37,852 nt of DNA. Source: a virus. The DNA lies in UHGV virus genome UHGV-0199318. One strand, 5' to 3'. The notes beneath the pieces were generated by a model. It had not been told where the DNA came from, made no database searches, and saw only the letters and a program-made list of their open reading frames with translations. Shown piece after piece: positions 10,254 to 28,501 of this stretch. Position numbers and translations under genes: made by a program. Within the stretch, counting starts at the first letter, position 1; every line of letters starts with the position of its first letter.

Positions 10254-10340
10254 ATGAGTGAACAGAACGAATTTGGCAGAGTATCCGCAGAGGAACTGGA
10301 AAAAGTATTTGAGACAGAAGAGCAGGAGGAACAGGAGTAA
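10254..10340 (+). CDS. 28-aa acidic micro-ORF (MSEQNEFGRVSAEELEKVFETEEQEEQE) coupled to the endolysin
   Basis: Strong AGGAGGTG RBS at 10241-10248. Its stop overlaps the endolysin ATG by 1 nt. Too short for the ORF track, no known homology. Confidence 0.3.
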   Translation: MSEQNEFGRVSAEELEKVFETEEQEEQE

Positions 10341-11143
10341 TGAAAATTGGCTTAAGGGGAGGACACTCCCCGAATTGTAAAGGTGCAATCGGTCTGATCG
10401 ATGAGCAGGCAGAAGTGCGGAAAATCTACAATGAGCTTGCACCGATGTTGCAGGCTGTCGGTCATACTGTGGTTGATTGTAATTCCAACGCATCCAATGT
10501 GTCTGGTGAGCTGTCTGACGGCACAAATAAGGCGAATAGTGCGGGGTGCGATATCTATGTCACCTTGCACATGAATGCGGCAGGAGCGGCGTCAGCGGGC
10601 GGCACAGAGGTGTGGTTATACGATGCATCTAACCAGACCATGAATACGATCGCAAGTAATATCTGCAAAAATTTTGCTGGAAAAGGATTTGCGAATCGTG
10701 GAGTGAAATACAGTTCCGGCTATCACGATCTGAATGCATCTAATATGCCAGCTATGATCGTAGAGACATTATTTTGCACCGGAACAGATGATGTGGCCAG
10801 GTACCGGAGCTTAGGAGTTAAAGAAGTTGCAGAACTGATCGCAAAGGCGATCGACAGCAAAGCATCCGCAGGAAGTGGGCAGGGAAATAATCAAAATACA
10901 GGAGATCAGAAAGGAGAAGAGACTATGCAGTGTATGTTTACAGTAGAGGGAAAAGGATGTGTATATTGGTATCATGACGATAAGATTACGGCTTTGGGAC
11001 ATCCGGACGAGATGAAGATCCTGATGGATATTTACAAAGCGAACAATGGAAGAGATATGCCGTCTTATCATTGGACAAAAAAAGCGCCGTGGCACGCAAG
11101 ATTGCTTGCGGTTCTGAACAGAAAACCATCTACATCTATCTAA
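10340..11143 (+). CDS. N-acetylmuramoyl-L-alanine amidase endolysin (Amidase_3 catalytic domain plus C-terminal wall-binding region)
   Basis: GGHSPN..GA.G.IDE....R.I...L......GH.V.D...N......L.......N.....DIYVTLHMNA...A..GGTEVW and ETLFCTG match Amidase_3 motifs. 267 aa. Last gene of the lysis cassette. Confidence 0.9.
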   Translation: MKIGLRGGHSPNCKGAIGLIDEQAEVRKIYNELAPMLQAVGHTVVDCNSNASNVSGELSDGTNKANSAGCDIYVTLHMNAAGAASAGGTEVWLYDASNQTMNTIASNICKNFAGKGFANRGVKYSSGYHDLNASNMPAMIVETLFCTGTDDVARYRSLGVKEVAELIAKAIDSKASAGSGQGNNQNTGDQKGEETMQCMFTVEGKGCVYWYHDDKITALGHPDEMKILMDIYKANNGRDMPSYHWTKKAPWHARLLAVLNRKPSTSI

Positions 11144-11149
11144 TAAAAT

Positions 11150-11175
11150 CCCCTCGGAGATCGTTCTCTGAGGGG
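11150..11175. terminator. Bidirectional hairpin between the convergent endolysin and recombinase genes
   Basis: cccctcggaga-tcgt-tctctgagggg (11-bp stem with one G-T pair). T/A-rich on both sides. Confidence 0.5.
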
Positions 11176-11195
11176 TGAATATTGTATCATTTGCT

Positions 11196-11241
11196 TTGTA
11201 CTAAGTATACATCCCCAAATGGGGCTAGATGTTTAGTACAA
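11196..11241. other. Candidate attP core for the adjacent serine integrase: 46-bp imperfect inverted repeat around a central AA
   Basis: ttgtactaagtatacatcccca|AA|tggggctagatgtttagtacaa. Outer 9 bp and inner 5 bp of the arms are perfectly symmetric and the middle is degenerate. Even length with a non-palindromic central dinucleotide. Lies 7 bp from the recombinase stop codon, between the lysis module and int, where attP sits in integrated prophages. Confidence 0.4.
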
Positions 11242-11247
11242 GACGCA

Positions 11248-12642
11248 CTAAATAAAATCAACACCTTTAATCGTATTGTCTTCGTTTAGATAAATTTCCT
11301 GGATTGTAGATCTCCAAAAAGAACGTCTATTTTCCAAAGACAGCGTATCATACATTTGCCGAAAGTCAGTTTCTAATAGTTCTTCCACATAGTGCAGGCT
11401 TCTCGTCTCTTCCTCCTCTGGAAAAGCGGCAGAAGCGGAATGTTCTTCTTCCAATCTCTGGTACTCCTTATCGTAGTAATCGTAAGAAATCCTCCCTTTT
11501 TGAAATAACAAATTTAATCGTTCCATTTCTTTTCTCAGTTTTTCCGGATCTTTCGTTTTCTTTTGCTTTTTTAGCTCTTCGCTGATCTGGTTGCTGCGTA
11601 CTTTATACTTTTCGTATTCTCTTTCGAGATTTTCGAGCAAATATTTTTCGACAAGGTTCTGGCTCACCCTATGCCTATACGTGCAAATATGATCGATAAG
11701 TGCTCTATTGCAACGGTAGTAGCAGTACGTTCTTTTTTCCCGTGTTTCACGGTTTATAATGGACGAGCATCCTGTACCGACTAATTTCTGTCCGCATACA
11801 GGGCAACGAATCAAACCCGTAAATAGGTATACTCTGCCAGATGGTGTGCTTTTTATATTTCTTTTCGAGATAGTTTGCATCTCATTCCATTCTTTTTCTG
11901 ACAGGTAGGCGGGGCAATAAGGATACCCTCTGTATGTCCCTTTATAAAATTCGCTGGATAACATCGTCCGTAACATGCCATAGCTAAAATCAATTCCATA
12001 GGTTTCCTGCATGTACCGGATAGCGCCCTTCTTGGAGTTATGATTTCTAAAATATTCAAAAAAATCTTCCACCATGTGCTCTGTTTCCGAATCTTTAACC
12101 ATGCATTTCTTTCCATCTACAACACCTGTTTTATAACCAAAAGGCATATTTGCATCTCCAAATATTAGCTTTTTCTGTCTTATAGATGCTTCATTCACAA
12201 ATTTAATTCGCTCGGATGTGGTGTCTACTTCGTTTTGACCGATCGACAGCACTACATTTAACTGCAATCGTCCATCTCTTGTCTCCATGTTTATACCGGG
12301 CTCTGATACGGAAATCCAGCGAACACCATGATCATCAAGCACATCTTGCACCTTATAAAAATCAGAAAGATTTCGAAACCATCTGTCGAGTCTCCAGAAA
12401 ATTATCACATCAATTTTATCCCTTTTTACGTCCTCTACAAGAGCGTGTATGGCTTTTCTTTTCTTCAATTCTTTTCTGGCAGTCTTTCCCTCGTCCGCAT
12501 AGACGCCTACTATAGACATATTGTTGTCTGTTGCGTATTGCTCCAGGCATTCTTTCTGTGCTTGCAGAGACTTGCCATGCACGCTCTGCTCAAATGTGGA
12601 GACGCGGATATATATGGCACACCGCAGTATTTTTTCTGGCAT
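11248..12642 (-). CDS. Large serine recombinase (phage integrase of the resolvase/invertase superfamily)
   Basis: N-terminal resolvase catalytic domain (AIYIRVSTFEQ....SL.AQ with nucleophile Ser; D..DVIIFWRLDRWFRN), followed by a recombinase domain, a Cys-rich zinc ribbon (C..C....C...C) and a coiled coil. 464 aa from the ATG at 12642, which has an AAGGAGAG RBS. Confidence 0.9.
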   Translation of the reverse strand: MPEKILRCAIYIRVSTFEQSVHGKSLQAQKECLEQYATDNNMSIVGVYADEGKTARKELKKRKAIHALVEDVKRDKIDVIIFWRLDRWFRNLSDFYKVQDVLDDHGVRWISVSEPGINMETRDGRLQLNVVLSIGQNEVDTTSERIKFVNEASIRQKKLIFGDANMPFGYKTGVVDGKKCMVKDSETEHMVEDFFEYFRNHNSKKGAIRYMQETYGIDFSYGMLRTMLSSEFYKGTYRGYPYCPAYLSEKEWNEMQTISKRNIKSTPSGRVYLFTGLIRCPVCGQKLVGTGCSSIINRETREKRTYCYYRCNRALIDHICTYRHRVSQNLVEKYLLENLEREYEKYKVRSNQISEELKKQKKTKDPEKLRKEMERLNLLFQKGRISYDYYDKEYQRLEEEHSASAAFPEEEETRSLHYVEELLETDFRQMYDTLSLENRRSFWRSTIQEIYLNEDNTIKGVDFI

Positions 12643-12819
12643 TTGCATCACTCTCCTTTTGTAAAATATATTTAAAATTTGTACAAAAATAACAGCCAGC
12701 GTACGAACTGATGTTCCGCTTGCGTGACTGCCCCGAAGATGATACAATATTCGTGGATTTCAATCGCATATCTTCGGATATGTATACCGTCTCTGTTGGC
12801 GCAGGGGCGGTTTTTTATT

Positions 12820-13350
12820 TTATTGTACGGCGATTTTTTGAGTGTCTTTTTTGTTGTCAAACGATATCATATCAGATGCTTCAATCGTGAGTTCTGTGTC
12901 ACTCTTTAATTTATACACCTGACACACTTCAACGGTTCCACCTGGCTGTACTTCGTTCAAGGCGTAGTTGTTCATAGAGTCGTTCTGTTCAGTCATGATT
13001 CCTATTTCACACTCACTGCCATCTTGGAAACACTGCACGTTTGCTGTAATTCCAGCTGTTGCATTTTCATCAGAATTGTTCGTGAAAGTGTAGTAGTAAA
13101 GCAAACATTTATTTCCTTCATAATCGTTTGCAAATTCATGTCTTACATATTTTACATTAAATTTTTCTGTTGTAAAATCTATAATTCCATCGTCTGCTGG
13201 CTGCGCATCCTCTGTCTTTGTTTCGTTCTGATCTGTCGCAGTTTCCGTATTTGTCTTGTTGTCTTTTCCAGAGTCCGTATTCCCACCACATGCTGTAACG
13301 GACAACACAATAGCTCCAGTTAATAACATAGCTACAATTTTCTTTTTCAT
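12820..13350 (-). CDS. Phage-encoded lipoprotein of unknown function (moron; superinfection-exclusion candidate)
   Basis: MKKKIVAMLLTGAIVLSVTAC has a lipobox (VTAC) and a type II signal peptide, then a Thr/Asp/Asn-rich linker and a beta-rich domain. Own RBS (gaggaaaagagga). Located between int and the repressor, the classic lysogenic-conversion slot. Confidence 0.7.
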   Translation of the reverse strand: MKKKIVAMLLTGAIVLSVTACGGNTDSGKDNKTNTETATDQNETKTEDAQPADDGIIDFTTEKFNVKYVRHEFANDYEGNKCLLYYYTFTNNSDENATAGITANVQCFQDGSECEIGIMTEQNDSMNNYALNEVQPGGTVEVCQVYKLKSDTELTIEASDMISFDNKKDTQKIAVQ

Positions 13351-13476
13351 GTTTTTCCTCTTTTCCTCTGTACTTTTCCACAATTTATATATAAACGCCG
13401 AAGCGGTTATACCATATTAAATTAAAATCTTCCATCAATCCTTATAAAATATAAGAACAAATGTTCGAATAAAATG

Positions 13477-28159: not shown

Positions 28160-28283
28160 TGGTACCAAAACGCAGATATCCGCAGATCTGCAAAAACAAA
28201 CAAAAAATAGATTCAGCGATCTATATTTAGTGTCAGTACCCGATTGCGGATAGGGTAAAGGATGTCAATAAAGGGCATCCTAT

Positions 28284-28356
28284 GGGTGTATAGCTCAGTA
28301 GGTAGAGCAATCGGCTGTTAACCGATGTGTCGTAGGTTCGAGTCCTGCTATACCCG
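28284..28356 (+). tRNA. tRNA-Asn (anticodon GUU)
   Basis: 73-nt cloverleaf: acceptor GGGTGTA/TATACCC, D-arm GCTC-AGTAGGTA-GAGC, anticodon arm ATCGG-CTGTTAA-CCGAT (U33, GUU, A37), variable GTGTC, T-arm GTAGG-TTCGAGT-CCTGC, discriminator G. Confidence 0.9.
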
Positions 28357-28501
28357 TTGTGGACTACTGCAAGGTTTCTCCTTTACTTATATATTTTTGA
28401 TTGTGTTTTTTGTAGTCGTATTCAAGCGTATTAGCAGTAGTCCTAAATTCTTAGCATCCAGAGATGGATACTTTTATTATGTTTTAAAGGTGGTGGGTCG
28501 G

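What the first reader, a model, noticed from the sequence alone, without database searches (positions are those of the whole stretch)
11196..11241. Candidate attP of the serine integrase: 46-bp imperfect palindrome with central AA, 7 bp from the int stop codon
Large serine recombinases act on ~40-50 bp attP sites with imperfect dyad symmetry around a non-palindromic central dinucleotide. The sequence ttgtactaa gtatacat cccca AA tgggg ctagatgt ttagtacaa has perfectly symmetric outer 9-mers and inner 5-mers, a degenerate middle and an even length centred on AA. It lies between the lysis module and int, where prophage ends normally sit. If correct, it also predicts the host attB (a site with partial similarity around an AA/TT core).
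Basis: partly seen in the sequence, partly recalled or inferred. Interest (0 to 1): 0.55.

Follow-up and report, generated by a model that had tools for sequence, protein, structure and literature searches.

The report
Phage attachment site (attP), confirmed
The 46-bp palindrome next to the serine integrase gene is the site where this gut-bacterium phage recombines with its host chromosome, crossing over at the central AA; this is an ordinary mechanism, but the site pair had not been mapped for this phage group.

Summary
The observation and the interpretation both hold. Window 11196-11241 is a 22+2+22 imperfect palindrome with 17 of 22 positions symmetric. It is the best such palindrome in the window, and one this good appeared in 1% of random windows. 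It lies 6 nt beyond the stop of a 464-aa large serine integrase.

- **Phage and lysogen forms.** Public contigs encoding exactly this integrase occur in phage form, with the intact palindrome, and in lysogen form.
- **Junctions.** In lysogens, identity to the window stops at 11215 on the int side and at 11220 on the lysin side. The shared core is CCAAAT, which contains the central AA.
- **attB.** Joining the two host flanks restores one ORF, an NMT1/SsuA-like ABC-transporter binding lipoprotein, across its Gly-Phe-Gly codons. The predicted empty attB 29-mer occurs exactly in 61 human-gut metagenome contigs.
- **Crossover.** Two secondary-site junctions, plus the intact secondary target gene, leave only AA (11218-11219) shared with attP. 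This fixes the crossover in silico.
- **Relatives.** Integrases 54-98% identical keep the bipartite symmetric half-site and change it symmetrically. Most of their lysogen junctions lie in the orthologous gene.
- **Tyrosine-integrase sister phages.** They lack the palindrome.
- **Terminator rival.** The palindrome is not the terminator. A separate hairpin at 11150-11177 fits that role.

This is a new member of a known kind, of modest interest.

The parts
11196..11241 (.). attP: 46-bp imperfect palindrome (22 + AA + 22) recognised by the adjacent large serine integrase
   Evidence: Sequence read. Best palindrome in the window. Split at its centre in lysogens. Conserved with symmetric changes in relatives.
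11218..11219 (+). Crossover dinucleotide 5'-AA-3' (TT on the int-sense strand)
   Evidence: Primary junctions limit the exchange to 11215-11220. Secondary-site junctions L169 and L182 break between 11217 and 11218. The intact secondary target reads ...CCAG AA GAGG..., sharing only AA with attP.
11215..11220 (+). 6-bp core CCAAAT identical in attP and the primary attB (ATTTGG on the host gene's sense strand, spanning the Gly-Phe-Gly codons GGA TTT GGA)
11196..11204 (.). Left outer arm TTGTACTAA, probably the motif read by the zinc-ribbon domain
   Evidence: Half-site positions 14-22 (TTAGTACAA) are invariant or change symmetrically in 10 attP variants. The assignment to a protein domain is inference from the published LSR model.
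11233..11241 (.). Right outer arm TTAGTACAA
11213..11224 (.). Inner arms CCCCA / TGGGG flanking AA (half-site positions 1-5: T G G g G), probably read by the recombinase domain
   Evidence: Positions 1, 2, 3 and 5 are nearly invariant in 20 half-sites. The domain assignment is inferred.
11248..12642 (-). Large serine integrase, 464 aa (start MPEKILRCAIYIRVSTFEQ...)
   Evidence: Pfam Resolvase 7.7e-27 and Zn_ribbon_recom 1.5e-7. Translation. The exact protein is on record in 298 collection blocks, in both phage and lysogen contexts.
11150..11177 (.). GC-rich hairpin CCCCTCGGAG...CTCTGAGGGG, the likely two-way terminator for lysin (+) and int (-). It is not part of attP. It stays on the lysin side after integration.
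   Evidence: Fold, followed by AUUUUAUU on the - strand. Conserved in tyrosine-integrase phages.
10340..11143 (+). Endolysin (Amidase_3), the last gene of the lysis module and the other neighbour of attP
   Evidence: The lysin-side junction contig is L019.

Best explanation
Window 11196-11241 is the attP site of the phage's large serine integrase (11248-12642, - strand). By analogy with studied serine integrases, an integrase dimer binds the two 22-bp half-sites. The inner TGGgG motif and the outer TTAGTACAA motif would be read by the recombinase and zinc-ribbon domains. This complex pairs with a dimer bound at attB, inside a host gene for an NMT1/SsuA-like ABC-transporter binding lipoprotein. 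All four strands are cut with a 2-nt stagger at the central AA, and the half-sites are swapped and rejoined.

The result is a prophage of about 37 kb with int at one end and lysin at the other. It splits the host gene between its Gly-Phe-Gly codons.

Shown here by sequence comparison: the site, both junctions, the empty attB, the position of the crossover, and conservation across the integrase family. Inferred from the known mechanism of the enzyme class: dimer binding, domain-to-motif assignment, the 2-nt staggered cut, and the need for a directionality factor for excision.
For: - **Integrase and palindrome.** The integrase is identified. The palindrome is the best in the window and is rare by chance.
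- **Both forms in nature.** The exact integrase protein is found in phage-form contigs with the intact palindrome (L007, L008, L017, L018). It is also found in lysogen contigs where host DNA begins within the palindrome (L009-L016).
- **Int-side junction.** Identity to the window ends at 11215.
- **Lysin-side junction.** Identity ends at 11220 in L019 and in 14 IMG/VR prophage contigs.
- **Host gene.** The joined host flanks give one 343-aa ORF reading ...ELELVTGFGADKTMTAV.... Intact orthologues exist in 80 Lachnospiraceae genomes.
- **Empty attB.** The predicted junction-spanning 29-mer is found exactly in 61 gut metagenome contigs. Most of these match both flanks at about 249/250.
- **Crossover.** Secondary-site junctions L169 and L182 break right after ...CCCCATT. 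The intact secondary target shares only AA with attP.
- **Relatives.** Ten attP variants from integrases 54-100% identical keep 16-19 of 22 positions symmetric. Arm changes are mirrored: TTGTATTAA/TTAATACAA in L189, and TGTTACTAA/TTAGTAACA in L196-198.
- **Module linkage.** The palindrome travels with the serine-int cassette (11190-12671) and is absent from tyrosine-integrase sister phages.
- **Geometry.** A118 attP needs 22 bp on each side of a 2-bp crossover, the same layout as here (PMC3556126).
Against: - No experiment was done. All evidence is comparative, and much of it comes from metagenome assemblies.
- The empty secondary target (L242/L243) comes from a slightly different allele than the L182 host. 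The base after AA is therefore inferred from conserved Glu-Glu codons in 6 of the 7 homologues fetched (the seventh ends at the first Glu).
- L182's integrase is only 78% identical to the window's. L169, at 95%, breaks at the same base.
- The primary sites alone cannot narrow the exchange below 6 bp.
- The expected 5-bp inward shift of the outer motif in attB was not clearly seen.
- Pfam did not report the 'Recombinase' middle domain at E<=0.001.
- PDB sequence hits cover little beyond the catalytic domain.
Confidence: 0.93

Rival explanations
1. The palindrome is mainly an RNA element: a terminator or a 3' stabilising or processing hairpin for int mRNA, in the manner of lambda sib. Any role in recombination would be secondary or absent.
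For: On the - strand the region folds with a 9-bp outer stem and a 4-bp inner stem, and the 111-nt region has z = -4.8. It lies in the int 3' UTR. Symmetric changes in relatives would also preserve an RNA stem.
Against: No U-run follows it, and the terminator scan does not call it. A canonical GC hairpin with a U-run lies 20 nt further on (11150-11177). The arms are conserved in sequence, not just in pairing, and the middle 8 nt do not pair. Lysogens keep only half of it next to int. An added RNA role in the phage form is not excluded.
Confidence: 0.04
2. The palindrome is the true attP, but strand exchange occurs at AT (11219-11220) rather than at AA (11218-11219).
For: The primary junctions allow any dinucleotide within 11215-11220. 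The int-side secondary junctions alone allow 11218-19 or 11219-20.
Against: The intact secondary target reads G-AA-G, so no AT is available there. AT is not at the dyad centre. A palindromic dinucleotide would lose orientation control, as shown for A118 (PMC3556126).
Confidence: 0.03
3. attP lies elsewhere, for example at the 12733-12777 inverted repeat upstream of int or at the tRNA-Asn gene (28283-28357). On this reading the palindrome is incidental.
For: 12733-12777 is an 8-bp-stem inverted repeat next to int. tRNA genes are common targets of tyrosine integrases.
Against: In all lysogen contigs the stretch from 12815/12826 down to 11215 is collinear with the window, so 12733-12777 is internal to the prophage. 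The region 12672-12825 is conserved in tyrosine-integrase phages. Every junction found maps to 11215-11220.
Confidence: 0.01

Closest known systems
Listeria phage A118 integrase attP/attB (attB inside comK)
   Same: A large serine integrase. attP is an imperfect palindrome needing 22 bp on each side of a 2-bp non-palindromic crossover. attB lies inside a coding region, is nearly asymmetric and is otherwise unrelated to attP. Only a few bases are shared at the centre (PMC3556126). Here attB has 5/22 self-symmetry, and about a third of its positions match attP.
   Different: The site sequences are unrelated. The crossover is GG in A118 and AA here. The shared core is 3 bp in A118 and 6 bp here. 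The host gene differs. No A118-type chain appeared among the PDB sequence hits.
TP901-1 integrase (Lactococcus phage), the closest named phage integrase with a solved domain by sequence
   Same: The catalytic domain matches at E = 1.1e-11 (3bvp). Both are serine integrases of Firmicutes siphophages, with attP next to int (the second point is from my own knowledge).
   Different: Only residues 7-138 align. The C-terminal DNA-binding part, which sets site specificity, shows no detectable sequence match. The att sequences are therefore not transferable.
Ruminococcus phage phiRgPS_6 tyrosine integrase and its mapped 21-bp attP
   Same: A sister phage with about 82% nt identity in the lysin and in the flanks of the integration module. 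Its attP sits in the same slot between lysin and int.
   Different: It uses a tyrosine recombinase. A 21-bp identity segment is shared with an intergenic attB. There is no 46-bp palindrome. The whole cassette 11190-12671 is replaced.
Ruminococcus phage RG-TP1 (PQ571303) and the RgGU serine-integrase phages
   Same: RG-TP1's int region is 91% identical in nt. It carries the same site with the same arms, TTGTACTAA...CTCCAAATGGGG...TTAGTACAA.
   Different: Neither paper read here that mentions RG-TP1 reports an att site for it. The 2026 RgGU paper states that integration sites were not identified for its own serine-integrase RgGU phages (PMC13435783). RG-TP1 has an extra 265 bp with a small ORF between the terminator and attP.

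Membership tests
attP of a large serine recombinase (phage serine integrase) | The adjacent gene encodes a large serine recombinase: a resolvase-type catalytic domain with a Ser nucleophile, plus a large C-terminal DNA-binding region with a zinc ribbon and a coiled coil | tested here: met
   Pfam Resolvase 7.7e-27 (residues 11-150) and Zn_ribbon_recom 1.5e-7 (275-341). The YIRVSTFEQ motif and the CPVCG...CYYRC cysteines are seen. The catalytic domain matches TP901-1 Int. The Pfam 'Recombinase' middle domain was not reported at E<=0.001.
attP of a large serine recombinase (phage serine integrase) | A site of about 40-50 bp with imperfect dyad symmetry about a 2-bp centre | tested here: met
   46 bp with 17/22 symmetric positions, unique in the window. 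Relatives show 16-19/22.
attP of a large serine recombinase (phage serine integrase) | Lysogens carry hybrid attL/attR sites, each with one attP half-site, and an empty attB exists in non-lysogens | tested here: met
   Int-side junctions L009-L016, L161 and others. Lysin-side junctions L019 and 14 IMG/VR contigs. Empty attB in 61 metagenome contigs.
attP of a large serine recombinase (phage serine integrase) | Exchange at a non-palindromic central dinucleotide that is identical in attP and attB | tested here: met
   The exchange is bounded to 11215-11220 by the primary sites. It is bounded to AA 11218-11219 by secondary junctions L169 and L182 plus the intact secondary target L242/L243. This is in silico only.
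attP of a large serine recombinase (phage serine integrase) | attB is otherwise unrelated to attP, with the outer (zinc-ribbon) motif displaced about 5 bp towards the centre | tested here: inconclusive
   attB matches attP at about a third of positions and has 5/22 self-symmetry. The shift scan gave 4/9 and 5/9 matches at -5, but equal totals at +1.
attP of a large serine recombinase (phage serine integrase) | Integrase alone recombines attP x attB in one direction, and excision needs a directionality factor | not testable with these tools
   This needs purified protein or an in vivo reporter. No directionality factor was sought.
Intrinsic (rho-independent) terminator | A GC-rich stem-loop followed directly by a U-run on the transcribed strand | tested here: not met
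   On the - strand the palindrome is followed by AGCAAAUGAUAC. The scan does not call it, and the hairpin at 11150-11177 fits instead.
Tyrosine-integrase attP (core with identical overlap plus arm-type sites) | An adjacent tyrosine recombinase and a longer identity segment shared with attB | tested here: not met
   The neighbour is a serine recombinase. The sister phages with tyrosine integrases lack the palindrome and use a 21-bp identity segment.

The most novel reading that the evidence does not exclude
Integration and excision could act as a reversible switch of the host's NMT1/SsuA-like ABC-transporter binding-protein gene ('active lysogeny'). The whole integrase family, down to 57% identity, has locked onto the invariant Gly-Phe-Gly-Ala-Asp-Lys codons of this gene across many Lachnospiraceae. 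On this reading the phage would control a nutrient-uptake function of a gut commensal linked to inflammatory bowel disease. The int+attP cassette, bracketed by a conserved 14-nt inverted repeat, would be a portable module swapped with tyrosine-integrase cassettes.
Probability: 0.1. Interest if true: 0.55.

Novelty: new member of a known kind. Interest (0 to 1): 0.35.

Why it matters
It supplies attP, attB, the crossover and the target gene for the serine-integrase phages of Mediterraneibacter (Ruminococcus) gnavus. This is a gut species associated with inflammatory bowel disease. The 2026 phage-library paper states that integration sites were not identified for its serine-integrase phages.

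Three practical uses follow:
- Lysogens can be scored by junction PCR or directly from metagenome reads.
- Lysogeny is predicted to disrupt one ABC-transporter binding-protein gene.
- A compact integrase/att pair becomes available for single-copy integration vectors in Lachnospiraceae, or as one more orthogonal recombinase.

The mechanism itself is textbook.

Tried and rejected
- **Wrong int start.** Looking up the integrase from the ATG at 12648 (MQMPEK...) found nothing on record. The start at 12642 did.
- **attB in reference genomes.** The exact attB 29-mer gave 0 hits in the species-representative genomes. A protein-guided scan then found only orthologues at 67-80% identity, with no M. gnavus copy among the best 80. 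One possible reason is a resident prophage in the representative genome. IMG/VR contigs from one isolate genome (640963057_000005 and _000008) carry both junction types. I did not verify that isolate's identity.
- **Secondary lysin-side junctions.** The scan of viral contigs for secondary-site lysin-side junctions found only primary-site junctions and chance hits. I therefore used the host flank of L182 to recover the intact secondary target.
- **Outer-motif shift in attB.** This was inconclusive.
- **PDB sequence search.** Little beyond the catalytic domain matched, so no structural template supports the half-site assignment.
- **Literature search on att sequences.** No paper was found.
- **Rfam.** Only the tRNA was found.
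- **Rival attP locations.** The 12733-12777 repeat and the tRNA were rejected as attP because they are internal to the prophage.

Full report
**1. What is in the sequence**

Window 11196-11241 reads TTGTACTAA GTATACAT CCCCA AA TGGGG CTAGATGT TTAGTACAA. The outer 9-mers and the inner 5-mers are perfect reverse complements. The middle 8-mers match at 3 of 8 positions, so 17 of 22 positions are symmetric around AA 11218-11219.

It is the only 22+2+22 palindrome of that quality in the window. Of 300 Markov-1 random windows, 1% contained one.

The int stop codon (TAG, - strand) is at 11248-11250. The spacer is therefore 6 nt, not 7.

**2. Surroundings**

- ORF 11248-12642 (-) is a 464-aa serine recombinase with Resolvase and Zn_ribbon_recom domains. 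It has an RVST catalytic motif and a Cys4 cluster.
- Upstream on the + strand is an Amidase_3 endolysin, 10340-11143.
- Between the lysin and the palindrome lies a GC-rich hairpin, 11150-11177. On the - strand it is followed by AUUUUAUU. It is the better candidate for the shared terminator. The palindrome has no U-run after it and is not called by the terminator scan.
- The window as a whole is a temperate siphophage of Mediterraneibacter (Ruminococcus) gnavus in its phage (circular) arrangement. Its closest records are RG-TP1, an unverified faecal phage scaffold, and the phiRg phages.

**3. The palindrome belongs to the serine-integrase module**

The phiRg phages encode tyrosine integrases (PMC10072058). 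They share the lysin and terminator up to window 11189, and the region from 12672 onward. Everything between is replaced. Their sequence at the palindrome's position is unrelated.

RG-TP1's int region is 91% identical in nt. It keeps the site with identical outer arms and a nearly identical centre, while the middle has diverged.

**4. Junctions in lysogens**

The exact 464-aa integrase is on record in 298 blocks of public assemblies. Contigs L007 and L008, and also L017 and L018, are in phage form with the intact palindrome. In L009-L016, int is followed after 46 nt by a truncated NMT1-family gene and then by ordinary bacterial genes.

- **Int side.** These lysogens are identical to the window down to 11215 and unrelated beyond.
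- **Lysin side.** A contig carrying the exact lysin (L019) gives the other junction. Identity runs up to 11220 and then changes to bacterial sequence. Fourteen IMG/VR prophage contigs show the same lysin-side junction.
- **Both ends on one contig.** Two IMG/VR contigs of about 38 kb carry the int-side junction at one end and the lysin-side junction at the other (L174 with L211, L193 with L224).
- **Other candidate sites.** The stretch 11215-12815, which includes the 12733-12777 repeat, is collinear with the window in all lysogens. That repeat is therefore not the att site.

**5. attB**

Joining the two host flanks through the shared CCAAAT gives one uninterrupted 343-aa ORF. It has a lipoprotein signal peptide and NMT1/NMT1_2 domains. 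It reads ...ELELVTG-F-GADKTMTAV... across the join.

The junction-spanning 29-mer exists in neither the phage nor the lysogens. It was absent from the species-representative genomes. It occurs exactly in 61 human-gut metagenome contigs, and most match both flanks at about 249/250.

Intact orthologues of the gene, at 67-80% aa identity, exist in 80 Lachnospiraceae genomes. In the 78 of the 80 loci where the site could be located, the two T's of the Phe codon that form the crossover are invariant.

In window orientation, attB is AGTCATCGTTTTGTCGGCTCCA-AA-TCCTGTGACGAGTTCCAGTTCA. It matches attP at about a third of positions, six of them the contiguous core. It has only 5/22 self-symmetry.

**6. 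Position of the crossover**

The primary site limits the exchange to 11215-11220.

Two contigs carry related integrases integrated elsewhere: L169 (95% identical) and L182 (78%). Both lose identity to attP immediately after ...CCCCATT, that is between window 11217 and 11218. Together with the lysin-side limit at 11220, this leaves AA (11218-19) or AT (11219-20).

The L182 flank encodes the N-terminus of a small GGACT-like protein. Six of the seven homologues fetched read ...ATILPEEGS...; the seventh ends at the first Glu. The intact gene reads ...CTGCCAG AA GAGGGA....

At this secondary target, only AA is shared with attP (A-AA-T). The crossover is therefore AA 11218-11219, the exact dyad centre.

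Caveats:
- The intact gene recovered is a near-identical allele, not the L182 host itself.
- The inference assumes the relatives cut at the same position. Their attP centres are identical.

**7. Family evidence**

Forty-five IMG/VR loci encode relatives. Ten distinct attP variants, from integrases 54-100% identical, keep 16-19 of 22 positions symmetric.

The half-site consensus, read outward from the centre, is T G G g G n t n n A t A n T T A G T A C A A. The conservation is in two parts: positions 1-5 and positions 14-22.

Changes in the outer arm are mirrored on both sides: TTGTATTAA/TTAATACAA in L189, and TGTTACTAA/TTAGTAACA in L196-198.

Apart from the two secondary-site junctions (L169, L182), the lysogen junctions of relatives, down to 57% identity, lie at the same Gly-Phe-Gly codons of the orthologous gene in other host species.

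**8. How it most likely works**

The geometry matches studied serine integrases. A118 attP needs 22 bp on each side of a 2-bp crossover. Its attB is intragenic, nearly asymmetric and otherwise unrelated to attP. The asymmetric dinucleotide alone sets orientation (PMC3556126).

By inference, an integrase dimer binds the two half-sites and pairs with a dimer on attB. It cuts at AA with a 2-nt stagger and exchanges the half-sites. Integration splits the binding-protein gene into an 88-aa N-terminal ORF and a 259-aa C-terminal ORF, as gene callers report them.

Integration also separates int from the terminator hairpin at 11150-11177. Excision should need a directionality factor, which I did not look for.

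The assignment of motifs to protein domains is untested. A scan for the expected 5-bp shift of the outer motif in attB was inconclusive. PDB sequence hits cover little beyond the catalytic domain.

**9. Novelty**

The kind of element is well known. For this phage group the sites appear unreported:
- The 2023 paper mapped only the tyrosine-integrase phage phiRgPS6.
- The 2026 library paper says integration sites of its serine-integrase phages were not identified.
- No held paper contains the att sequences. Supplementary tables of large recombinase-mining studies were not searched.

This is a new member of a known kind, of modest interest.

Noticed in passing
window 8374-9642 (-): An IS110-family transposase ORF of 422 aa (DEDD_Tnp_IS110 + Transposase_20) sits inside the lysis module, between holin-like genes and the lysin. 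It is also present in L008, L017 and L018. It is absent from RG-TP1 and the phiRg phages. It looks like an insertion sequence carried by a viable phage lineage.
   Followed up: partly
window 11177-11190 and 12739-12752: A perfect 14-nt inverted repeat, GAATATTGTATCAT / ATGATACAATATTC, brackets the integrase cassette. Both copies, or an 11-nt core of them, are conserved in RG-TP1 and in the tyrosine-integrase phiRg phages. The left copy ends exactly where homology to those phages stops. It could be a landmark for module exchange or a regulator binding site.
   Followed up: partly
window 12733-12821 (+): The right repeat copy contains TGATACAAT, which resembles an extended -10 on the + strand. 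It lies within an 8-bp-stem hairpin (12733-12777). A + strand terminator-like hairpin with a T-run follows at 12786-12821. Both neighbouring genes are on the - strand. The segment is conserved in tyrosine-integrase phages. A small + strand RNA is possible. There was no Rfam hit.
   Followed up: no
window 11190-12671 versus L002, L004-L006: The whole integration module is swapped. A serine-int + attP cassette here is replaced by a tyrosine-int cassette in the phiRg phages, between conserved flanks. The experimentally mapped 21-bp attP of phiRgPS6 sits in the same slot.
   Followed up: yes
L007 (ENA ERZ28660363 scaffold_563), L009-L016: The identical integrase and attP occur in phages with different neighbours: an Amidase_2 lysin, a SIR2_2 gene or an HNH gene next to int. 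The cassette therefore moves between otherwise mosaic phage backbones.
   Followed up: no
L001 3890-4154 (RG-TP1): RG-TP1 carries an extra ~265 bp with a small ORF (gp41, 59 aa) between the lysin terminator and attP. The insert sits next to a partial repeat of GAATATTGTATCAT.
   Followed up: no
L003 6786-7817 (MT836489), equivalent to window 12778/12782: A ~1-kb insert encoding a 297-aa protein on the - strand lies between int and the DUF5067 gene. This appears to be a cargo-gene slot. The protein was not identified.
   Followed up: no
L169 and L182 (IMG/VR): Two prophages with related integrases are integrated at secondary sites. The L182 site lies in a GGACT-like gene of about 97 aa. This shows natural off-target integration that needs little beyond the AA dinucleotide.
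   Followed up: yes
window 28283-28357 (+): A tRNA-Asn (GTT) gene lies just upstream of the packaging genes. It is internal to the prophage and is not an att site.
   Followed up: partly
window 12820-13383 (-): A DUF5067 protein of 187 aa is encoded next to int. The equivalent genes in phiRg phages are annotated as beta-sandwich or superinfection-exclusion proteins.
   Followed up: no
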